DNA from: Sphingomicrobium sp.
GTDB lineage: Bacteria; Pseudomonadota; Alphaproteobacteria; Sphingomonadales; Sphingomonadaceae
Reading direction: 5' to 3'
Assembly: GCA_035281125.1 (NCBI GenBank)
Contig: DATEEM010000085.1
Span: 39,671 to 103,670 of the forward strand
DNA length: 64,000 bases
The position numbers and the translations under genes were made by a program. Below the pieces are notes generated by a model. The model saw nothing but the letters and a program-made list of their open reading frames with translations, did not search any database and was not told the origin of the DNA. This document shows, piece by piece, positions 14,130 to 22,999 of the stretch (position 1 is its first letter; the number at the start of each line of letters is the position of its first letter).

Positions 14130-14351
14130 TCATTCGAATTCGATCAGGCGCGCCCGCCTCGTTTCCCCACCCGTCTGGATCACGGAATCCCGCGTGATGT
14201 AGCCATCGCGGCTTTCCGCGCTGCCGAGGCGCAAGACCGCGCCGGAGATGACCCGGACCGTCGCGCGCGCCTGGACGCGCGACGCGACCGGCTCGCGCGC
14301 CGGTTCCGGAGGGGCCGACACGGCGGCAGCGACGGCAAGAAGAAGCAGCAT
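14130..14351 (-). CDS. Small (73 aa) secreted hypothetical protein
   Basis: MLLLLAVAAAVSA signal-like N-terminus; fills the gap between zitP and tRNA-Leu; stop abuts the zitP stop; no clear SD sequence. Confidence 0.65.
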   Translation of the reverse strand: MLLLLAVAAAVSAPPEPAREPVASRVQARATVRVISGAVLRLGSAESRDGYITRDSVIQTGGETRRARLIEFE

Positions 14352-14518: not shown

Positions 14519-14605
14519 GCGGTCGTGGCGGAACTGGTAGACGCGCAGCGTTGAGGTCGCTGTGGCCGAAAGGCCGTGGAAGTTCGAGTCTTCTCGACCG
14601 CACCA
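14519..14605 (+). tRNA. tRNA-Leu (anticodon GAG)
   Basis: GCGGTCG acceptor stem, TGGTAGA D-loop, TTGAGGT anticodon loop, long variable arm, GTTCGAGT T-loop, encoded CCA. Confidence 0.97.
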
Positions 14606-14659: not shown

Positions 14660-15229
14660 TTGATCGAAATCGAGGCGGATATCGTGCTCGGTGAGGCGTT
14701 CCGCCCGGCCGCCATCGCGCACAGCCACGTCTACAGGGGCGGCGTCCGGCGGATTCTCCTGCCGGCGCTCGCGCTCGCCGGGGCAATCATCTTGTCGTCC
14801 ATGGTCGGCATGCTCCTGCCGCTGCTCAGCCTGCGCCTCGAAGGCCTCGCCAGCCTGTTGTGGATCGGCGGCGGCATCCTCGGGCTGATGCTGGCGCTGA
14901 GGATCCTGTCCAGCGAGCACATGCGCGGCTTTCTCGACGGCTTGCGGCGGATCGGTTCGCCCGACGTCTTCCCGACCCGGTTCCGCTTCGACGAGCAGGG
15001 AATGTCGATCGCCAGCAGCCGGATCAGCTACTTGGTCCCATGGGCCTCGATCTTGTTCATCGTGCCATCCCCGGAACATTGGCTCGTCCAGGTCGACACG
15101 ATGACTCTGGTGATCCCTTATCGGGCATTCCCGGACCCGCAATCGGAGCGCGCGTTCCTTGACCTGGTCGGTGCGCGGCTGCTCCCGGACGCGAAGCGCC
15201 GTTCCGTCCTCGACAGAAAGGCCGCCTAG
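14660..15229 (+). CDS. YcxB-family membrane protein
   Basis: Two TM helices, then the YcxB-like FDEQG...VPWASI...VIPYRAF domain; TTG start with GGAGGGG RBS. Confidence 0.7.
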   Translation: MIEIEADIVLGEAFRPAAIAHSHVYRGGVRRILLPALALAGAIILSSMVGMLLPLLSLRLEGLASLLWIGGGILGLMLALRILSSEHMRGFLDGLRRIGSPDVFPTRFRFDEQGMSIASSRISYLVPWASILFIVPSPEHWLVQVDTMTLVIPYRAFPDPQSERAFLDLVGARLLPDAKRRSVLDRKAA

Positions 15230-17922
15230 GGCATCGTTAGCGGCAGGTCGCCCGATGCGATCGCGTGGGCGGTCGAGACATGGACTGCGCCGAGCCTGAC
15301 GACCGGTCGCTCCGGTGTGACTGTCGCGTTGAGGTTGAGCTCTGGCAGAATGCGCGCGGCCGCCGCCGAATCCCGTGCGATTCGCAACGAATAGCTGCCG
15401 TAGGGCACCCGTTCGAACAGGAAGAAGCCGTCGAAGTCGGTGCGCACAGTCGCGACCAGCTTGCCGGCCCCGTCGACGAGCTCGACGTCGAGGCCCTCGA
15501 ACCCGATTCCGCCGCTCTTGACGAGGGCGCCTTCGATGTCGCCGCCACCGACCAGCCCGATTTCGACCTCGGCCGGCACGCCGGGCCGCGGAACCACGAC
15601 CTGCAAGGCCTTTTTCGGGACGAGCATCGGGTCGCCGAGGCTAGTCGCATCGATCCCGACGGTCAGCGGCGTGTAGGCCGTGAGACCGCCGATCGTGACC
15701 GACCCCTTGGAATCCGTCGCGCGCTCGGCCTGCTTGGTTCCGGTGGTGATCAGCGCGCCCCTTTCGAGCGGCTCCGAGGGGTCGTGGAAGCCGTTGTCGT
15801 TGAGATCGCGATAGACGAGCGCGCGAATCATGCCGGCTTCCGCGAGGGGGCGTCGCGACAGGGTCATGCCGCGCCTTGGATCGAGCGAGAAATTGAGGTT
15901 CACGCCGAATGCGACGGAGCCGTCGGTCGCGGCTTCGCCAGTCAAGGCAATCGCCATCGAATCCAGGCGGCGGATATGGCTGATCCGGAAGCGGCCGCGA
16001 TGACCGGCCCCGTCATAGGCGACCGCGCCTTCCCAGTCGGCATTTTCCGATGCCGACCAATAAGCCGACAGCTCGGCGTCGCGGAAACGCGCGCGCGGCG
16101 CGACGTCGAAGCTGGCCAGGCCGCGCAGGCGCACGTCGCCGACGTGGCCGCTGCCGATCATCGCGACATTGACCTCGCCCGGCGGCGCCGGCCCCGAGCT
16201 CAGCAATTGCTTGCGATAGGCGACGTCGGTGGCGAGATTGAAGCGGCCGAGGTTTGCCGACAGTCTCGCAGCCGCCTCGAGCTGCTTCGACCCGTCCCCG
16301 CGGTCGGTGAAATGGACCTCCGCGTGCGCCGGAACGACCTTTCGCCCGATTTTCAGTGGCGCGTCGACCGTGGCGCGAAACTCGCGGAGGCTTTCGGCGC
16401 GGCCTCCCTGCAAATGAAAATCGCTTGCAATAATCGCTTCGGCGCCGACGTTCACGCGCCCGAACTTGCCGACCATCTGCGCCCTCGCCGCCATCCCGCC
16501 GGTCGAATCGCGCGCGGCCGACACTTCAACCAGCGCGCCGCCGATCGACCGCCGTACCGAGCCCTCGACAAACGTCACACGCTCGTCGTCGATCAGCATC
16601 ACGCGAGCCAGCGCGCCAACCGACGTGCGGGTATCGATGCCATGCTCGATGGAGACCGCCGCCTGGGCCTTCGGCTGCCCAAAGCGGTCGGGCGGTTTTT
16701 GCAGCGTGAGCACATCGCGGCCGGGCTGGTTGAAGCCGGCCCAGTACCAGGTCTTGCCCGCCGGCACGTTGTCCTGCCCGACGTTGATCACTTCCTCGCG
16801 CGAGCGGATTTGTCCCTGGGGGCCGTAAAGGACGATGCTGACGCGGTTTTCGCCGTAGAAAAGTTGCACGTCGTCAAATACATAGCGGCTACTCGCATTG
16901 GCCTTGGCGAAGCCGAGCAGCTCGCCGTTGCGATAGATTTCCGCTTCCCAGCCGCTTGGAAGGTCACCTTCGAAGCGAGTCCGGTCAAACGACGCCTGGG
17001 TAGTCAGCGGCCGATTGGTCACGACTGCCCCGCGGCCGCTGGCCGCCGACCCGCTGAGCCGGCTGTCGAAACCCTCAACGTCGCCGAAGCCGAAGTGGGT
17101 GGCCTTGAGCGGTCCGAGCAGCTGCGCTTCGGGATCCGAACGGTAGGCGCGGAAGCGAAGCATGCTCGGCATGCCCTTCTCGGTCGTCGTCAATTGCGCA
17201 TCGTAGGACAGCTTGGCGATCTCCCCGGCCGCATAAACCGAGCTTTGCCGATCGATTCGAACGCCTTGCCCGGACCGGTACGTGACTCCGGCGCTGACGA
17301 CGAAGTCGAGGGCCGGCGCGCGCCACATGCGGTACGGGAGCTTCACCTGGGGGAGCGTGGCCAGATCGTAGCGCGCGGTGCGGATGTGCTGCGACCTTTG
17401 CTGCCGCTCCATAGCCATTTCGACCGGGAGCTTCGCCTCGGATTCGAGGACCAGGACCGAGCCGGACGTCACGGGCTTGACCCCTATGCCGAACCAGCGG
17501 GCAAGGGCGGTCGTCTCGACGCACCAGCCCTCTGGTGTCTCCCGGATCGTGCCCGGAGCGAGAGTCTCGTTCTTGGCGCCGTAGCTCGCCGAGTTGGCAG
17601 CGTAATCGATTGAAATCCGGTTCTTTTCCTTGAACGCCCAACCGCCGGCCTTGCGCGCCGTCAGGTCGACCTTCACGGGTACGTCAAGCGCAGTCAGAAA
17701 GTCGCCTAAGACGACACAAGTCCCTTCGGGGGTGGTGTAGGCGCGGACGCCATCGCCGAGCCTCAGCTGCCGAATGTGGACGTCCAGCAGGAACTGCGCG
17801 TCCGGATCGGGGCTCCAGCCCTTTGCGGCCGCAGGCGGCGGAGGCGCGGATGCGGCGACGCTGCCGGCGCAAAGCGCCAGCAGCATCCCCGCCCTGCGCA
17901 GCCAATGACGGCCGGCGCGCAT
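15226..17922 (-). CDS. Outer-membrane usher-like protein of a chaperone-usher fimbrial system (898 aa)
   Basis: Signal peptide; PapC-N-like domain; usher plug-like motif (GWEAEIYRNGELL...DVQLFYGENRVSIVLYGPQG); amphipathic beta-strand barrel region; two C-terminal Ig-like (SdrD-B/carboxypeptidase-regulatory-like) domains. Confidence 0.8.
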   Translation of the reverse strand: MRAGRHWLRRAGMLLALCAGSVAASAPPPPAAAKGWSPDPDAQFLLDVHIRQLRLGDGVRAYTTPEGTCVVLGDFLTALDVPVKVDLTARKAGGWAFKEKNRISIDYAANSASYGAKNETLAPGTIRETPEGWCVETTALARWFGIGVKPVTSGSVLVLESEAKLPVEMAMERQQRSQHIRTARYDLATLPQVKLPYRMWRAPALDFVVSAGVTYRSGQGVRIDRQSSVYAAGEIAKLSYDAQLTTTEKGMPSMLRFRAYRSDPEAQLLGPLKATHFGFGDVEGFDSRLSGSAASGRGAVVTNRPLTTQASFDRTRFEGDLPSGWEAEIYRNGELLGFAKANASSRYVFDDVQLFYGENRVSIVLYGPQGQIRSREEVINVGQDNVPAGKTWYWAGFNQPGRDVLTLQKPPDRFGQPKAQAAVSIEHGIDTRTSVGALARVMLIDDERVTFVEGSVRRSIGGALVEVSAARDSTGGMAARAQMVGKFGRVNVGAEAIIASDFHLQGGRAESLREFRATVDAPLKIGRKVVPAHAEVHFTDRGDGSKQLEAAARLSANLGRFNLATDVAYRKQLLSSGPAPPGEVNVAMIGSGHVGDVRLRGLASFDVAPRARFRDAELSAYWSASENADWEGAVAYDGAGHRGRFRISHIRRLDSMAIALTGEAATDGSVAFGVNLNFSLDPRRGMTLSRRPLAEAGMIRALVYRDLNDNGFHDPSEPLERGALITTGTKQAERATDSKGSVTIGGLTAYTPLTVGIDATSLGDPMLVPKKALQVVVPRPGVPAEVEIGLVGGGDIEGALVKSGGIGFEGLDVELVDGAGKLVATVRTDFDGFFLFERVPYGSYSLRIARDSAAAARILPELNLNATVTPERPVVRLGAVHVSTAHAIASGDLPLTMP

Positions 17923-17956
17923 CGAGTCTGCGCTCCCCGCGCTTCCCGCGCCCCTC

Positions 17957-18790
17957 CTAGTAGAGAACCGCCTTGGTTTCGGCGATGACGTGGCTGCCGT
18001 CGTCGAAGGTCTCGACATATTGGACGGTCACGGGCCCGCGCAGCTCCTCCTTGAAGCTCTCCTCCACCGGGACCGCGACGTGGCGCGTGCTGACCTCCTT
18101 GTAGACCGCGACGGCCTTCTGGACGGCGATCGGGTTGCGAACGCCCGGCTTCAGCACGCGCACCTCGCCAAAGGTAGAGCGATCGCCGGAGCGCGAGATA
18201 TCCAGCCCGACGTAGGACTTCCCGTTCTTCTGCTCGAGCTGAACATTGGCAATCCCGGCGGTCGCCTGGAGGTTCCCGAGCCGAACGATGACCGGGATGG
18301 TGACGCCGTAGACCGGCGTTAGCTGGAAATGGAGGCCCTTGGGCGCGTCGCCCGCCGCGGCGGGCTGAACGACGGGGTTGGCCGGGGGAATGGCGCGGAA
18401 CAACAGGTGCACGCGATATTCGCCGTCGGGCATGCCTTGGGGCGGGCGCGCGGCAATGCGGATCGCCTGCGGCTGGTGCGGCGCCAGCACGACCTTGCGC
18501 GGCGCGTAGACGATCATGTCGGCCGCCTTCTGGTCTTCCGTGGTGGGCTCGTTGACGTCGATGAGCCCGCCCTCGCTCGTCATGCGGCGGAATTCGATCG
18601 ACACCCGGTAGGTCGCCGGCTCCTCGCCGATATTGTTGAGGATGACCTCGGCGCCCCTGCGGCCATCGAGCACGATGCGCGTCGGCGCGACGAGCAGGTC
18701 GCCGATGCCCGCCTCGGCAGGCGTGGCGGCGAGAAGCAATGGCGCAGTGCACAGGCATGCGCGGAAGGCGGACTGGGTCCAGCGGTTCAT
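17957..18790 (-). CDS. Periplasmic fimbrial chaperone (PapD-N-like)
   Basis: Signal peptide; LLVAPTRIVL...VILNN...APRKVVLAPHQPQAIRI...GEYRVHLLFRAIP...VTIPVIVR; GAGGGG RBS. Confidence 0.82.
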   Translation of the reverse strand: MNRWTQSAFRACLCTAPLLLAATPAEAGIGDLLVAPTRIVLDGRRGAEVILNNIGEEPATYRVSIEFRRMTSEGGLIDVNEPTTEDQKAADMIVYAPRKVVLAPHQPQAIRIAARPPQGMPDGEYRVHLLFRAIPPANPVVQPAAAGDAPKGLHFQLTPVYGVTIPVIVRLGNLQATAGIANVQLEQKNGKSYVGLDISRSGDRSTFGEVRVLKPGVRNPIAVQKAVAVYKEVSTRHVAVPVEESFKEELRGPVTVQYVETFDDGSHVIAETKAVLY

Positions 18791-18848
18791 GACGGCGATC
18801 CCCTCACTTGCTCCACACTGGAGCGATCGCCGTCCTCTTTCGTCGGGA

Positions 18849-18871
18849 ATGGTTGATTTTCGGTCAACCAT
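18849..18871. promoter_or_regulatory. Palindromic CtrA-like site upstream of the chaperone-usher genes
   Basis: ATGG-TTGA-N7-TCAA-CCAT, perfect 8-bp inverted repeat with a 7-nt spacer. Confidence 0.6.
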
Positions 18872-18920
18872 GGCTGGTGTTTCGGCAGAAAGGCGAGAAA
18901 AGCGGGCGTTTCCGCCGCGA

Positions 18921-19439
18921 TCAATAGTCCACGGTCACGTTGAACGTGCCGACATAGACTCCTCCCGCGGTGCTCGAACTCAGCGTGATCGAGCCTCCGA
19001 GGGAAAAATTCACTCCCGGATTGCCGGAGTTGGGGATGAAAACCGTTCCGGGGTTGTCGACGACCAGCGTCAGTGTCTTGCTCGGGTCGTTCTGGTTGAC
19101 CAGGGTCACGTTCGGGGCGGAGATCCGCGCCGTCTGGTTGTTGGAACCGGCCACGTTGTAGGTCGCGACCTGGGTCGTCCCGGAGCAGGTGACATTGCTG
19201 TTCGCGCAGCTGAACAGGCCGGTCCGGGTAATGCCAACGGTCGCGTTCGACCAGGTCCCCGGGCCGAGGACGATCGTCCCGAGGTCGAGGTTCTGCACCC
19301 ACTTGAGCGTCAGCGGCTTCACGACCTTGGCCGACACGGCGGCGCTCTTGTTGGCCGCATGCGCGGGCGCCGCGGCAAGGGCGGCCGCGAGGACGATCGA
19401 AATTGCGGCAAGGCCCGATCGGGCTCGCTGGCGCACCAC
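18921..19439 (-). CDS. DUF4402-type fimbrial subunit (paralog 2)
   Basis: Signal peptide, AAVSAKVVKPLTL, Cys pair, C-terminal GVYVGTFNVTVDY; GTG start with GGGAG RBS. Confidence 0.85.
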   Translation of the reverse strand: MVRQRARSGLAAISIVLAAALAAAPAHAANKSAAVSAKVVKPLTLKWVQNLDLGTIVLGPGTWSNATVGITRTGLFSCANSNVTCSGTTQVATYNVAGSNNQTARISAPNVTLVNQNDPSKTLTLVVDNPGTVFIPNSGNPGVNFSLGGSITLSSSTAGGVYVGTFNVTVDY

Positions 19440-19485
19440 TTGCTCTCCCGGCCGGGGACTTCTCGAGCGTCGGCTTACCTCCGAA

Positions 19486-19508
19486 ATGGTTTATTTTGTC
19501 TCAACCAT
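19486..19508. promoter_or_regulatory. CtrA-like site upstream of subunit 2
   Basis: ATGG-TTTA-TTTTGTC-TCAA-CCAT, near copy of the 18849 site. Confidence 0.6.
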
Positions 19509-19527
19509 GATCGGGCACTCCGCGCGC

Positions 19528-19556
19528 AAAAAGGGGCCGCCATCGCTGGCGACCCC
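19528..19556 (-). terminator. Intrinsic terminator after subunit 1
   Basis: Minus strand GGGGTCGCCA-GCGA-TGGCGGCCCC-TTTTT. Confidence 0.8.
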
Positions 19557-19585
19557 CCAACCGCTTCGTTCCGGTACGAACGAAC

Positions 19586-20104
19586 TTAGTAATTCACGGT
19601 GACGTTGAACGTTCCGACGTAGGTGCCATCGGCGGTCGTCGAAGCGACGGAGATCTGGCCGCCGAGATCGAAGGTCAGCCCGACAGCGCCGGAATTGCCG
19701 AGGTTGACTGTGCCCGGGCTGTCGACCGTCATGAGCAAAGTCGAAACGCCATCGTTCTGATTGGTCAGGGTCACGTTCGGCGCGTTGATGGTTACGACCT
19801 GATTGTTGGTCCCGGTGATGCGGTACTGGGCCGTCTGGGTAGCGCCCGAGCAGGTCGTGTTGGCGTTGGCACAGCTGAACACGCCGGCCCGGCTGATCCC
19901 GACGTTCGCGCCCGACCAGGCGCCCGCGCCGGACAGGACGATCGTCCCGAGGTCGAGGTCACGGACCCAGGTCAGGGTCAGCGGCTTTACGATCCGCGCT
20001 GTGGCCGTGGCATTCTGGTTGGGACCGACCGCAAACGCGGGCGTTGCGCTCAGCGCCCATGCCGCAACCGCCGCCAGCGACATCATGCGAAGGACATTGC
20101 TCAT
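19586..20104 (-). CDS. DUF4402-type fimbrial subunit (paralog 1, probable major subunit)
   Basis: Signal peptide ending PAFA, ATATARIVKPLTL, Cys pair, C-terminal GTYVGTFNVTVNY; followed by its own terminator. Confidence 0.85.
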   Translation of the reverse strand: MSNVLRMMSLAAVAAWALSATPAFAVGPNQNATATARIVKPLTLTWVRDLDLGTIVLSGAGAWSGANVGISRAGVFSCANANTTCSGATQTAQYRITGTNNQVVTINAPNVTLTNQNDGVSTLLMTVDSPGTVNLGNSGAVGLTFDLGGQISVASTTADGTYVGTFNVTVNY

Positions 20105-20206
20105 CGTTTATTTCCCCACTTGGATTGGAAATCACTGCCGGCTGGCCAGATGGTCACCCGCGGGTTTACCAATTAACCTTAATCGCTTTCGGCTTTGCTC
20201 AGGGGC

Positions 20207-20225
20207 ATGGTTAACGGCCGGTTAG
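20207..20225 (-). promoter_or_regulatory. CtrA-like site upstream of subunit 1
   Basis: Gene strand CTAA-CCGGCCG-TTAACCAT; extra TTAA half-sites at 20173-20182. Confidence 0.6.
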
Positions 20226-20248
20226 GCCTTCGGCCGGCCTGGCCGAGG

Positions 20249-20767
20249 TCACAGATATTCAGCCGTGATCGGCAGATCGCCGCGATATTCGCCGTCCGCA
20301 TCGCCGCTGACGCGGAGCCGTCCGCCGAAGCGAAAGGTGAGATTGCCCGCGGAATCGAGACGCGGCATGGACGGGAGGTCGCTGGCGACGTCGTCGAAGA
20401 CCACCTGGCCGCCGCTCAGCGAGTGGAGCACGATACTGTTCGGCAGCACGACCCGGATCGCTCGCCCCGGCTCGCCGCGGACGACCACGGTGCCAACCAT
20501 GGCCCGCGGGCTGATCTCCGCGATCGCCCCGCTGATCGCGCGCGATCCGTCGGGCCGAATCATGGCGGTGCCATCGCCCAAACCGGACAGGATGAGTCGG
20601 TCGAAGCTCAGGCCGGTTTCGATTTCGAGGCGGACGTCGTTCTTGCCGGAATTGTCGTCGCGGCTGGTCGTGGGCGTCGCGCAAAGGCGGCACTGGGCGG
20701 TCGCCGAGACCGACGAAGCCAGGCCGACACCCGCCATCAGCATCACAAGCGCGCTTTTGAGGCTCAT
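20249..20767 (-). CDS. Divergent DUF4402-type subunit (possible tip/minor subunit)
   Basis: Signal peptide, CRLC N-terminus, LSFDRLIL, FRFGGRL, C-terminal GEYRGDLPITAEYL. Confidence 0.75.
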   Translation of the reverse strand: MSLKSALVMLMAGVGLASSVSATAQCRLCATPTTSRDDNSGKNDVRLEIETGLSFDRLILSGLGDGTAMIRPDGSRAISGAIAEISPRAMVGTVVVRGEPGRAIRVVLPNSIVLHSLSGGQVVFDDVASDLPSMPRLDSAGNLTFRFGGRLRVSGDADGEYRGDLPITAEYL

Positions 20768-20893: not shown

Positions 20894-22999
20894 ATGGCCC
20901 GTTCGCCCTCCTCCGCTCCTTCGGGGCGCTCGACATTCCGGACGATCGCCAAATGGGTCGTCTACGCCGGGCTTGCCGGCCTGCTCCTGCTCGGCATCTT
21001 CGTCGGCGTCGCCTACAGCCAGCTTCCGGAATATTCGGAGCTCGAGAAACGGTCCGATCTCGGGCAAATGGTCCGCGTCCGCGCCGCCAACGGTCAGGTC
21101 CTGGTGTCCCTCGGCCCGAGCTTCGGCCGCTGGCTCACCTACGACGAGATCCCGAAGGAAATGCGGGCGGCGATGATCGCCGTGGAGGATAAGCGCTTCC
21201 GCAGCCACGTCGGCGTCGATCCGATTGGAATCGCCAGGTCGTTCAAGGTCCGGATCGAATCCGGCCACTGGCGCCAGGGGGGCTCGACCATCACCCAGCA
21301 GCTCGCGCGCAACATCTTCCTGACCAACACACGAACGTTCGGCCGCAAGCTCAAGGAGATGATCCTGGCGCTCGCGCTCGAGCGGAAGTTCACCAAGGAG
21401 CAGATCCTCGAGCTTTATCTGAACCGCGTCTATTTCGGGGGTGGCGCCTATGGGATCGACGCCGCCTCTCAGAAATTCTTCGGCCACAGCGCCGATCATC
21501 TGAGCCTCGGCGAGGCGGCGATCATTGCGGGGCTGGTGAAAGCCCCGTCCAACTATTCGCCGACCGCGGATGTCGAGGCGGCGCGCGAGCGCTCTGCGAT
21601 CGTGCTCAAGACCATGGCCGACAACGGGTTCATCGACCCGGCCGCCGCGGCCGCAGTCGATCCCGCGCAAATTCGAATCCAGCCGACGACCCGCCAGAAC
21701 AGCGTCCGCTATTTCACCGACTGGGCGCTGCCCCAGCTCGATACGTTGATCGACGAGACCCAGGACCCGATCGAAGTCTGGACCACGCTCGACCCGGCGA
21801 TGCAGGCCGCGGCCGACCGCGCGATCCAGGCGAACGTTCCCGCCGGGGCACAGGGAGCACTGGTGTCGATCGACCGCGACGGAGCGGTCCGGGCGATGAT
21901 CGGCGGCCGCGACTATGTCGATTCGATCTACAATCGCGCGACGCAGGCCACCCGCCAACCCGGCTCTGCCTTCAAGCTGTTCGTCTATTTGACCGCGCTG
22001 GAATCGGGAATGAAGCCGACGGACACGATCGTCGACGAGCCGATCACGATCGGCGGCTGGAGCCCGCGCAATTCGACTCGCACCAACCTCGGACCCGTTA
22101 CGTTGCGCGAAGCCTTTTCGCGCTCGATCAACACGATCAGCGCCAAGATCGGCGCGCAGCTCGGCTTCGGCAGCATCGCCGACATGGCGCGGCGCTTCGG
22201 GATCAGCACCCCCATCTCGACCTATCCGTCGATGGTGCTGGGAACGAGCGACGTCCGCCTCATCGACATGACCCGCGCCTTCGCCTCGGTCGCAAACAAG
22301 GGCGTCGCCATCACGCCCTATGCGATCCGCAAGGTGGTGAACGCTGACGGCCGCCTCCTTTACCAGCACGAGCGATCGGAAGAGCGGGTGCTGGTCGCGC
22401 CGTGGGTCGCGGCCGAGATGACCGACCTGCTGCAATCCGCCGTGCTGACCGGTACTGGACGCGCAGCCCAAATCGGCCGCCCGGTGGCCGGCAAGACGGG
22501 GACGACCAGCTCGAACAAGGACGGCTGGTTCGTCGGATTTTCCAGCGGGCTGACGACCGGCGTCTGGATGGGCCGGGACGATGCCCGCGCGGTGCCTGGC
22601 TTGCAGGGGGGCACGGCGCCGGCGCGTGCGTTCCACGATTTCATGACGGTTGCGGTGGCTCGGCGTCCCGTCGAAACCTTCGATACTCAAGTGCCGATGC
22701 CGGACTGGCAATTGACTCCGGAAGAGGAATTCTTAGGCGACGAGGCATTCGACGCCAATGCCCTTCAACCCCTGGTCGACGAAAACGGCAATCCGCTTCC
22801 CCAACCATTGCCGGCCCAGCCCGGCGCTCCGCCGCCGATGATCCGGCCGGACGGGACCGGCGAACCGTCCCAACAGGAGCTCGACCAGGCATTTCCTCCG
22901 GCACCGGCGCAGCGCCCGTCGCCGCGCCAGCCGCCGCCACGGCAACCCGAGCGTCTACGTCCGCCCGAAGCGGCGCAGCCGCGGCCCGGCACGGCGTAG
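20894..22999 (+). CDS. Class A penicillin-binding protein (PBP1A family)
   Basis: EDKRF, GGSTITQQLARN, YLNRVYFG glycosyltransferase motifs; SAFK, SINT and KTG transpeptidase motifs; Pro-rich tail. Confidence 0.95.
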   Translation: MARSPSSAPSGRSTFRTIAKWVVYAGLAGLLLLGIFVGVAYSQLPEYSELEKRSDLGQMVRVRAANGQVLVSLGPSFGRWLTYDEIPKEMRAAMIAVEDKRFRSHVGVDPIGIARSFKVRIESGHWRQGGSTITQQLARNIFLTNTRTFGRKLKEMILALALERKFTKEQILELYLNRVYFGGGAYGIDAASQKFFGHSADHLSLGEAAIIAGLVKAPSNYSPTADVEAARERSAIVLKTMADNGFIDPAAAAAVDPAQIRIQPTTRQNSVRYFTDWALPQLDTLIDETQDPIEVWTTLDPAMQAAADRAIQANVPAGAQGALVSIDRDGAVRAMIGGRDYVDSIYNRATQATRQPGSAFKLFVYLTALESGMKPTDTIVDEPITIGGWSPRNSTRTNLGPVTLREAFSRSINTISAKIGAQLGFGSIADMARRFGISTPISTYPSMVLGTSDVRLIDMTRAFASVANKGVAITPYAIRKVVNADGRLLYQHERSEERVLVAPWVAAEMTDLLQSAVLTGTGRAAQIGRPVAGKTGTTSSNKDGWFVGFSSGLTTGVWMGRDDARAVPGLQGGTAPARAFHDFMTVAVARRPVETFDTQVPMPDWQLTPEEEFLGDEAFDANALQPLVDENGNPLPQPLPAQPGAPPPMIRPDGTGEPSQQELDQAFPPAPAQRPSPRQPPPRQPERLRPPEAAQPRPGTA

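What the first reader, a model, noticed from the sequence alone, without database searches (positions are those of the whole stretch)
15226..20767. Complete, unclassified chaperone-usher fimbrial system built from DUF4402 subunits
Seen: five co-oriented exported genes: three 172-aa beta-rich subunits ending in G-x-Y-x-G-x-(F/L)-x-(V/I)-T-(V/A)-x-Y, a PapD-N-like chaperone, and an 898-aa protein with an usher N-domain, plug motif, barrel and two C-terminal Ig-like domains. Knowledge: this is the part list of chaperone-usher pili, and the C-terminal zipper resembles archaic/alternate (Csu/SCPU, Ecp/CS1) pilins. Inference: a surface adhesion fibre whose components usually carry only DUF or hypothetical labels, possibly a distinct clade. 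This is the best candidate for the undescribed system in the window.
Basis: partly seen in the sequence, partly recalled or inferred. Interest (0 to 1): 0.8.

Follow-up and report, generated by a model that had tools for sequence, protein, structure and literature searches.

The report
Divergent chaperone-usher fibre locus (DUF4402)
This soil Sphingomicrobium carries a complete but very diverged chaperone-usher gene set that most likely builds thin surface fibres from DUF4402 proteins, a widespread branch of a well-known pilus pathway that annotation misses and that the papers I could search do not describe.

Summary
Five co-oriented minus-strand genes lie at 15226-20767: three 172-aa DUF4402 proteins with signal peptides, a 277-aa PapD_N-like protein and an 898-aa outer-membrane protein.

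The large protein gets no Pfam Usher hit. Its AlphaFold model nevertheless matches only the ushers FimD and PapC at the top of a PDB fold search (E 3e-25). A diverse family profile aligns to archaic ushers (Prob 98.5%, E 3e-15) and to classical ushers (97%). Reversed-sequence controls are negative.

The chaperone sits near the PapD_N threshold. Its N domain aligns to archaic chaperones at 93%.

A confident subunit model (pLDDT 94) finds only chaperone-usher pilins among its best PDB matches, but weakly (TM 0.49 or less). Sequence similarity to SCPU pilins is limited to the C-terminal strand motif.

The usher family is much further from archaic and classical ushers than those two are from each other. 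It has about 6,200 clusters at 50% identity. In other phyla it travels with DUF4402 genes and the chaperone.

My verdict is a real, complete, deep-branching variant of the chaperone-usher pathway. The fibre itself and donor-strand exchange are inferred, not shown. "DUF4402" occurs in none of the searchable papers. Earlier notes of this scan already hold 246 findings that mention such loci.

The parts
20249..20767 (-). DUF4402 subunit 3, 172 aa. After the signal peptide (…ATA|QC) comes a polar CxxC segment (QCRLCATPTTSRDDNSGKND) where subunits 1 and 2 have an alternating N-terminal extension. It is the candidate tip or initiator subunit.
   Evidence: Pfam DUF4402 E 1.4e-19. It is only 26% identical to subunits 1 and 2 and lacks their internal Cys pair. 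The AQCRLC start is seen in all six relatives printed. The gene is found in nearly all loci that reach that far, including those with only two subunit genes. Distant loci also carry one subunit without an N-terminal extension.
19586..20104 (-). DUF4402 subunit 2, 172 aa. The mature N-terminus is VGPNQNATATARIVKPL…. It is the candidate major shaft subunit.
   Evidence: Pfam DUF4402 E 2.6e-17, with the domain starting at residue 42, which leaves about 16 mature residues outside it. AlphaFold model of the mature protein: pLDDT 94.3, pTM 0.84. The top 30 PDB fold matches are chaperone-usher pilins, with E from 3e-3 upward and TM 0.49 or less.
19528..19558 (-). Intrinsic-terminator-like hairpin GGGGGGTCGCCAGCGATGGCGGCCCC followed by TTTTT, just downstream of subunit 2.
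   Evidence: The intergenic RNA folds at -69.7 kcal/mol, z = -4.4. Coordinates. A hairpin of -12 kcal/mol or stronger followed by a T run lies after the subunit-2-type gene in 42 of 61 related loci. The same test finds one after 8 of 62 subunit-1-type genes and 0 of 65 subunit-3-type genes. The printed examples carry the same GGGGTCGCC…GGCGGCCCC stem.
18921..19439 (-). DUF4402 subunit 1, 172 aa, GTG start. The mature N-terminus is ANKSAAVSAKVVKPL…. It is a second shaft-type subunit, 49 nt upstream of the chaperone gene.
   Evidence: Pfam DUF4402 E 1.7e-15. It is 57% identical to subunit 2 as precursor and 62% as mature protein. It is conserved in the related loci.
17957..18790 (-). Periplasmic PapD-like chaperone, 277 aa from M28 (the ORF is open from 18871). 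Signal peptide …TPAEA|GIGDLLVAPTRIVLD.
   Evidence: PapD_N E 6e-4, below the cut-off. PapD_N is the top Pfam hit in 38 of 43 relatives and in 7 of 7 distant orthologues, three of them above the cut-off. With signal peptides trimmed, hhalign against archaic chaperones gives Prob 92.9%, E 3.7e-7 over 124 columns. That span covers the whole N domain, including the IPVIVR strand. The reversed control is negative.
15226..17922 (-). Outer-membrane usher, 898 aa from M33 (the ORF is open from 18018). Layout: signal peptide, N-terminal domain (about 50-160), barrel (about 204-690) with an inserted plug sandwich (about 317-381), then two C-terminal beta-sandwich domains (about 697-790 and 794-881).
   Evidence: No Pfam Usher hit; only CarboxypepD_reg and SdrD_B at 828-889. 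AlphaFold model: pLDDT 70, pTM 0.51. The 18 best Foldseek PDB matches are all FimD or PapC, E 3e-25 to 6e-13; the next is SdrD at 4e-9. hhalign of the diverse profile against archaic ushers gives Prob 98.5%, E 2.7e-15, 578 columns. Against E. coli classical ushers it gives 97.1%, E 5.7e-11. Reversed controls give E 0.02-0.4.

Best explanation
The locus encodes a complete chaperone-usher-type assembly line of a very diverged lineage.

Shown by computation here:
- The 898-aa protein is a remote homologue of pilus ushers. It has the domain order N-terminal domain, barrel with plug, two C-terminal domains.
- The 277-aa protein has a PapD-type N domain.
- The three DUF4402 proteins are secreted and have a pilin-like beta-sandwich fold.
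- The three kinds of gene travel together across distant bacteria.

Inferred from what is established for Fim, Pap and Csu pili:
- DUF4402 subunits cross the inner membrane by Sec.
- The chaperone captures them by inserting a strand into their open groove.
- The complex docks on the usher's N-terminal domain.
- Subunits are joined head to tail when the roughly 16-residue N-terminal extension of the incoming subunit (…NATATARIVKP…) replaces the chaperone strand. This is donor-strand exchange.
- The fibre grows out through the barrel after the plug moves aside.

Inferred roles of the subunits:
- Subunit 3 has no such extension and would enter first, sitting at the tip.
- Subunit 2 has its own conserved terminator and would form the shaft together with subunit 1.
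- Two orphan DUF4402 genes elsewhere in the genome may be alternative subunits for the single usher.

The product is most likely a thin adhesive or matrix fibre of the archaic, Caf1-like kind rather than a thick helical rod.
For: - Usher fold: all 18 best PDB matches are FimD or PapC, E 3e-25 to 6e-13.
- Usher homology: Prob 98.5% to archaic and 97.1% to classical ushers over 550-580 columns covering barrel, plug and C-terminal domains. Reversed controls are negative.
- Plug motif: the narrow profile aligns to the plug region of archaic ushers.
- Chaperone: PapD_N is the top hit throughout the family, and three members exceed the cut-off. hhalign gives 92.9% over the N domain.
- Subunit: model pLDDT 94. 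The top 30 PDB matches are Caf1, CfaB, CsuA/B, CS17, SafA and other chaperone-usher pilins.
- C-terminal motif G-x-Y-x-G-x-F-x-V-T-V-x-Y is shared with SCPU pilins.
- Linkage: DUF4402 genes, the ~280-aa chaperone and the usher are adjacent in Desulfobacterales, in three further metagenomic or MAG contigs, and in three other Pseudomonadota families.
- Co-occurrence: all 4 usher-positive genomes among 301 also hold DUF4402 genes next to the usher.
- Conservation: intact genes in the same order, with usher identity 54-79% to the window, in 80 relatives.
- No competing machinery: the genome has no other usher (PF00577) and no SCPU gene.
Against: - No Pfam Usher hit for the window protein.
- The usher model is only moderately confident (pLDDT 70, pTM 0.51, TM to FimD 0.45-0.57).
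- The subunit's fold matches are weak (best E 3e-3, TM below 0.5).
- Similarity to SCPU disappears outside the last 37-49 residues once signal peptides are removed.
- I could not inspect the model coordinates, so the open groove and the position of the N-terminal extension are untested.
- There is no two-domain adhesin.
- There is no expression or protein evidence.
Confidence: 0.8

Rival explanations
1. The machine is chaperone-usher-like but does not make a pilus. It exports DUF4402 proteins to form a surface coat, a capsule-like layer or a matrix. The models are the Myxococcus protein U spore coat and the Yersinia F1 capsule, both made by usher systems.
For: The best fold match of the subunit is Caf1, the F1 capsule subunit. 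All subunits are single-domain, and no two-domain tip adhesin is encoded. Published text notes that atypical usher operons make capsule or spore coat (PMC13734109, read).
Against: F1 capsule is itself a donor-strand polymer, so this differs in form, not in mechanism. The locus holds one subunit type without an N-terminal extension and others with one. That is the pattern of an ordered fibre with a tip.
Confidence: 0.12
2. It is an ordinary member of the archaic (sigma) chaperone-usher clade that Pfam thresholds happen to miss. It would then be neither a separate branch nor new.
For: The new usher family scores somewhat better against archaic than against classical ushers (136 against 103). The subunit's best TM-scores are to CsuA/B (0.47-0.49). 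The C-terminal motif is shared with SCPU pilins.
Against: PF00577 finds archaic ushers in the same bacterial family at E down to 6e-28, but gives nothing for this protein. Archaic against classical ushers score 396 (E 7e-48), about three times closer than either is to the new family. None of 52 subunits hits SCPU at E up to 1. The mature DUF4402 and SCPU profiles reach only Prob 19-25%.
Confidence: 0.06
3. The large protein is an unrelated outer-membrane barrel, for instance LptD-like or a transporter. The neighbouring Ig-like proteins would then have no assembly relation to it, and the likeness to usher systems would be convergent or spurious.
For: LptD barrels also appear in the fold search at E about 1e-7. 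The usher model is only moderately confident.
Against: Ushers beat the next barrel class by about 18 orders of magnitude in the fold search. The profile match spans plug and C-terminal domains, not only barrel strands, and reversed controls fail. Gene linkage with DUF4402 and the PapD_N-like gene holds across phyla.
Confidence: 0.02

Closest known systems
Archaic (sigma) chaperone-usher pili: Acinetobacter Csu, Pseudomonas CupE, Myxococcus protein U system (SCPU/COG5430 subunits)
   Same: The part list is the same: several small single-domain subunits, one chaperone and one usher. This is the closest usher and chaperone class by profile comparison (98.5% and 92.9%). The subunit's best TM-scores are to CsuA/B. 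The C-terminal G-x-Y-x-[GD]-T-x-x-V-T-V-x-[YF] strand motif is shared.
   Different: The subunits are DUF4402, not SCPU: no PF05229 hit, and profile similarity covers only the last strand. The usher is not detected by PF00577 and lies about three times further from archaic ushers than those lie from classical ones. There is no two-domain CsuE-like tip adhesin. The last usher domain scores as CarboxypepD_reg/SdrD_B. Longer relatives add SPOR or LysM cell-wall-binding domains.
Classical chaperone-usher pili (type 1 Fim, P pili Pap): FimD/PapC ushers, FimC/PapD chaperones
   Same: These are the best structural matches for the large protein: full-length FimD, E 3e-25. The domain order is the same. 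The chaperone N domain belongs to the same Pfam family, PapD_N.
   Different: Usher identity is 10-14%. hhalign reaches only 97% with E 6e-11. The subunits do not hit the Fimbrial family. The gene order differs: three subunit genes come first, and a terminator follows the second.
Caf1 (F1 antigen) and other FGL-type polyadhesin fibres
   Same: Caf1 is the top fold match of the DUF4402 subunit. Both make, or would make, fibres from single-domain subunits with no specialised two-domain adhesin.
   Different: The match is weak (E 3e-3, TM 0.36-0.40, 15-17% identity). The Caf1M and Caf1A sequences are unrelated at HMMER level: no PDB chaperone or usher was hit by the family profiles.
Gram-positive WxL pilus with the DUF916/DUF3324 chaperone (ElrE; bioRxiv 10.64898/2026.10.17.759780)
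   Same: The window chaperone's only PDB sequence hit is a WxL-interacting protein, EfmWxLIP1, E 0.002-0.004 over about 170 residues. Both are two-domain Ig-like strand-donating chaperones, or are presumed to be.
   Different: Profile-profile comparison gives E 0.003, and the reversed control gives 0.004, so no real sequence link is shown. The WxL system has no outer-membrane usher.

Membership tests
Chaperone-usher pathway (as a superfamily) | Outer-membrane usher with N-terminal domain, large barrel closed by an inserted plug domain, and two C-terminal periplasmic domains | tested here: met
   The AlphaFold model shows this domain order. The 18 best Foldseek PDB hits are all FimD or PapC, E 3e-25 to 6e-13. 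hhalign gives 98.5% and 97.1% over barrel, plug and C-terminal domains. Limits: this is a predicted structure, pLDDT 70. The N-terminal domain is not covered by hhalign.
Chaperone-usher pathway (as a superfamily) | Usher recognised by the curated Pfam Usher model PF00577 | tested here: not met
   The window protein has no hit at E up to 0.1. The whole genome has none. One distant relative has a faint hit, E 0.007, below the cut-off.
Chaperone-usher pathway (as a superfamily) | Periplasmic chaperone with a PapD-type N domain (PF00345) | tested here: met
   The window protein scores 20.2 bits against a cut-off of 23. PapD_N is the top hit in 38 of 43 close and 7 of 7 distant orthologues, three of them above the cut-off. 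With signal peptides trimmed, hhalign against archaic chaperones gives 92.9%, E 3.7e-7; the reversed control is negative.
Chaperone-usher pathway (as a superfamily) | Second (C-terminal) chaperone domain and a basic residue pair in the cleft that holds the subunit's C-terminus | tested here: inconclusive
   No PapD_C hit. With signal peptides trimmed, hhalign does not extend past the N domain. An invariant Arg in the P-T-R motif and another in I-P-V-I-V-R exist, but their equivalence to PapD Arg8 and Lys112 rests on a low-probability alignment.
Chaperone-usher pathway (as a superfamily) | Subunits with an Ig-like fold lacking the last strand, plus an N-terminal donor strand | tested here: inconclusive
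   The model is confident (pLDDT 94) and its best PDB matches are all pilins of this pathway. About 16 mature residues with an alternating pattern lie outside the Pfam domain.
Chaperone-usher pathway (as a superfamily) | A surface fibre whose assembly depends on the chaperone and the usher | not testable with these tools
   This needs genetics and microscopy in a cultured carrier.
Archaic (sigma) clade, SCPU-type | Subunits carry the SCPU / spore coat protein U domain (PF05229) | tested here: not met
   None of 52 subunits hits PF05229 at E up to 1. The genome has no PF05229 match. Mature-profile hhalign gives Prob 19-25% over the C-terminal 37-49 columns only.
Archaic (sigma) clade, SCPU-type | Usher groups with sigma ushers rather than outside the known clades | tested here: not met
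   hhalign scores: new family against archaic 136, new family against classical 103, archaic against classical 396. This is a distance yardstick, not a tree. Alpha-clade ushers were not sampled.
Pfam DUF4402 (PF14352) | Score above the curated cut-off of 25.2 bits | tested here: met
   Scores are 71.5, 64.1 and 58.2 bits for the three subunits. Two more genes in the genome score 81 and 73 bits.

The most novel reading that the evidence does not exclude
DUF4402-linked usher systems form a separate, deep branch of the chaperone-usher superfamily. This branch lies outside the six clades (alpha to sigma) on which the published classification rests, and it is invisible to the Pfam Usher model. It is spread over several phyla, with thousands of sequence clusters. 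It has its own pilin family, and some of its ushers are tethered to the cell wall through SPOR or LysM domains. Its fibres could have an architecture and roles not yet seen in this pathway.
Probability: 0.55. Interest if true: 0.6.

Novelty: new variant of a known kind. Interest (0 to 1): 0.5.

Why it matters
Chaperone-usher pili are the best-understood bacterial adhesion fibres, and their classification is built on ushers that standard models recognise. This locus belongs to a large family that those models miss: about 6,200 clusters at 50% identity. Public records call its usher "hypothetical", "carboxypeptidase-like regulatory domain" or "SPOR domain" protein.

Recognising the family would give a function to the DUF4402 family. 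It would also extend the pathway to soil and marine lineages where it is not annotated, and it offers a distant outgroup for asking how ushers, chaperones and donor-strand pilins arose.

This Sphingomicrobium locus is a minimal, chromosomal, vertically inherited version: 2-3 subunit genes, chaperone and usher, always between mrcA and ftsE. Cultured Sphingomonas relatives carry it, which makes it a convenient place to test the family experimentally.

The gain is incremental rather than surprising, because the mechanism is expected to be the known one.

Tried and rejected
- Single-sequence and family-profile HMMER searches of the PDB found no usher, chaperone or pilin for any of the three components. 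Sequence alone does not show the relationship.
- The first DUF4402-SCPU hhalign (96.5%) and the first chaperone hhalign (93.5%) were inflated by aligned signal peptides. After trimming, the subunit signal fell to Prob 25% and then 19%. The narrow chaperone profile fell to 76%. Only a more diverse chaperone alignment restored 92.9%.
- The narrow usher alignment (relatives above 70% identity) gave only 68% against archaic ushers and nothing against a single FimD sequence. The diverse alignment was needed.
- I tested whether this chaperone bridges PapD-like and Gram-positive WxL (DUF916/DUF3324) chaperones, prompted by the PDB hit to EfmWxLIP1. I built a WxLIP alignment from plasmid records. hhalign gave E 0.003, no better than the reversed control at 0.004, so I rejected the idea.
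- The consensus promoter and terminator scan gave nothing above shuffles. The terminator after subunit 2 was found by folding instead.
- The two orphan DUF4402 genes have no usher or chaperone beside them.
- Literature searches for DUF4402, PF14352 and IPR025514 returned zero papers. Searches on chaperone-usher with Foldseek, with Sphingomonas and with usher-like found no description of this family.

Full report
**What is there.** The window comes from a 2.16-Mb, 94%-complete Sphingomicrobium-type genome. Its close homologues are named Sphingomicrobium sp. or Sphingomonas sp.. On the minus strand between mrcA (PBP1a, 20894-22999, plus strand) and a tRNA-Leu (14519-14605) lie five co-oriented genes:

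- subunit 3 (20249-20767)
- subunit 2 (19586-20104)
- subunit 1 (18921-19439)
- a chaperone-like gene (17957-18790; the ORF is open to 18871)
- a large outer-membrane protein gene (15226-17922; the ORF is open to 18018)

All five products have signal peptides. The three 172-aa proteins hit Pfam DUF4402 well above the cut-off.

**The large protein is an usher.** HMMER finds only a CarboxypepD_reg/SdrD_B domain near its C-terminus. There is no Pfam Usher hit and no PDB relative.

An AlphaFold model built on 48 relatives has moderate confidence (pLDDT 70, pTM 0.51). It shows an N-terminal mixed domain and a long run of barrel strands interrupted by a small sandwich at about 317-381. Two C-terminal sandwiches follow. 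In a Foldseek search of the PDB the 18 best matches are all FimD or PapC, with E from 3e-25 to 6e-13. The next are SdrD at 4e-9, which matches the C-terminal domain, and LptD at about 1e-7.

I then built a diverse alignment of 60 family representatives, 23-60% identical to the window protein. I compared it with six archaic ushers taken from SCPU-type loci of other Sphingomonadaceae. hhalign gave Prob 98.5%, E 2.7e-15 over 578 columns, running from the barrel through the plug to the last domain. Against nine classical ushers of E. coli K-12 it gave 97.1%, E 5.7e-11. Reversed-sequence controls gave E 0.02-0.4.

**The chaperone.**
- The window protein hits PapD_N at 20.2 bits, below the cut-off of 23.
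- PapD_N is the top Pfam hit in 38 of 43 close relatives.
- It is also the top hit in all seven orthologues from distant loci, three of them above the cut-off.
- With signal peptides removed and distant members included, hhalign against archaic chaperones gives 92.9%, E 3.7e-7 over the entire N domain. That includes the strand that would be donated.

**The subunits.** The mature subunit 2 gives a confident model (pLDDT 94.3, pTM 0.84). Its 30 best PDB matches are chaperone-usher pilins: Caf1, CfaB, CsuA/B, CS17, HdaB, SafA and tip subunits. The matches are weak, with best E 3e-3 and TM 0.35-0.49.

The Pfam domain begins about 16 residues after the signal-peptide cleavage site. This leaves an extension with an alternating pattern (NATATARIVKP in subunit 2, SAAVSAKVVKP in subunit 1), as a donor strand would have.

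Sequence likeness to SCPU pilins is real but small. A first score of 96.5% came mostly from aligned signal peptides. With mature sequences only the last 37-49 columns align, at Prob 19-25%, E about 1e-3. That stretch is the G-x-Y-x-G-T-F-x-V-T-V-x-Y strand. No subunit hits PF05229. I could not read model coordinates, so the key point of an open groove remains untested.

**Linkage and spread.**
- About 80 Sphingomicrobium and Sphingomonas loci keep the order mrcA, subunit 3, (subunit 2), subunit 1, chaperone, usher, zinc-ribbon gene, ftsE.
- An exhaustive profile search found 6,237 clusters (50% identity) related to the usher at E up to 1e-3, and 1,838 at E up to 1e-30.
- Four of five distant members examined have 1-3 DUF4402 genes and a protein of about 280 aa next to the usher. 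These are a Desulfobacterales MAG and three further metagenomic or MAG contigs. The fifth contig is cut at the usher's start.
- In a draw of 301 Pseudomonadota genomes, the four with the usher family all carry adjacent DUF4402 genes.
- Longer ushers add SPOR, LysM or further Ig-like domains at the periplasmic end.
- The window's genome has no PF00577 usher and no SCPU gene. It does have two more DUF4402 genes among housekeeping genes.

**How far from known clades.** Archaic against classical ushers score 396 in hhalign (E 7e-48). The new family scores 136 against archaic ushers and 103 against classical ones. PF00577 detects archaic ushers in sister genera at E down to 6e-28 but not this family. 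The family therefore seems to lie outside the span between archaic and classical ushers. This is a distance argument, not a phylogeny, and the alpha clade was not sampled.

**Details of this locus.** Subunit 3 is only 26% identical to the other two and lacks their Cys pair. It carries a conserved polar CxxC segment (QCRLC…) where the others have the alternating extension. It is present even in relatives with only two subunit genes. Distant loci likewise hold one subunit without an extension next to one with it. This fits a first-in tip subunit, which needs a groove but no donor strand.

Downstream of subunit 2 lies a strong hairpin followed by a T run (19528-19558; z = -4.4). A comparable hairpin with a T run is found in 42 of 61 related loci after that gene. 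It is found in 8 of 62 loci after subunit 1 and in none of 65 after subunit 3. This suggests two transcription units, and high separate expression of subunit 2 as the main shaft subunit.

**Mechanism and rivals.** I commit to a chaperone-usher mechanism with donor-strand exchange making a thin fibre (0.8 for the machine; lower, about 0.6-0.65, for the fibre details). The rivals are:
- a coat or capsule-like product made by the same machinery (0.12)
- an ordinary sigma-clade member merely missed by thresholds (0.06)
- an unrelated barrel (0.02)

A possible sequence bridge to the Gram-positive WxL chaperones was prompted by a PDB hit at E 0.002 and by a 2026 preprint. It failed a reversed-sequence control.

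**Novelty.** "DUF4402", "PF14352" and "IPR025514" occur in none of the roughly 8.4 million searchable papers. Related searches found no description of the family. The library lacks most subscription journals, so absence is not proof. Earlier notes of this scan list 246 findings in at least 177 genomes that mention DUF4402 with usher and chaperone. Several were followed up with the same conclusion. They are leads, not independent evidence, but they show that this window is one plain instance of a recurrent family. I rate it a new variant of a known kind, of moderate interest.

Noticed in passing
window 19528-19558 (-): A conserved intrinsic-terminator-like hairpin, GGGGGGTCGCCAGCGATGGCGGCCCC followed by T5, lies after subunit 2. 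The printed examples from related loci differ at positions inside the stem-loop (GCCAGCGATGGC, GCCGGCGACGGC, GCCGGCAACGGC). It splits the five genes into two likely transcription units.
   Followed up: yes
window 14130-14351 (-): A small ORF of about 73 aa with a signal-like N-terminus. tblastn finds it in about 35 of the related loci at 35-51% identity, 300-400 bp downstream of the usher and in the same orientation. In the window it is separated from the usher by a tRNA-Leu and a convergent 189-aa membrane-protein ORF (14660-15229, +). I did not test whether it belongs to the fibre system.
   Followed up: partly
own genome, contig C38:7392-7775 (-) and contig C57:3984-4382 (+): Two further DUF4402 genes (81 and 73 bits) sit alone among housekeeping genes: TldD/PmbA, an ABC ATPase and NadB-like on C38; DUF4153, DUF3089 and PyrB-like on C57. 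They may be extra subunits for the genome's single usher.
   Followed up: partly
P0170, P0210, P0259 (distant usher relatives); L113 5887-9936: Long members of the usher family (1,350-1,480 aa) carry SPOR, LysM, Cu_amine_oxidN1-like and several extra CarboxypepD_reg or Ig-like domains. This suggests that some of these ushers are tethered to peptidoglycan.
   Followed up: partly
L113 10058-17936 (Desulfobacterales MAG): In this distant locus the gene order is usher, DUF4402, DUF4402, chaperone-like. The module sits next to an alpha-2-macroglobulin and PBP1c pair. In the window it sits next to PBP1a. This is probably coincidence.
   Followed up: no
window 17960-18790 (-) versus PDB 9i25_C / 9i1y_A: The chaperone's only PDB sequence hit is the Enterococcus WxL-interacting protein EfmWxLIP1 (E 0.002-0.004, about 170 residues). 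A profile-profile test scored no better than a reversed control.
   Followed up: yes
L014 (JBLNCZ010000001.1): A contig with the same syntenic Sphingomicrobium-type locus (usher 68% identical) is deposited under the label "Bacillota bacterium MAG112". This is probably a mislabelled or mis-binned record.
   Followed up: no
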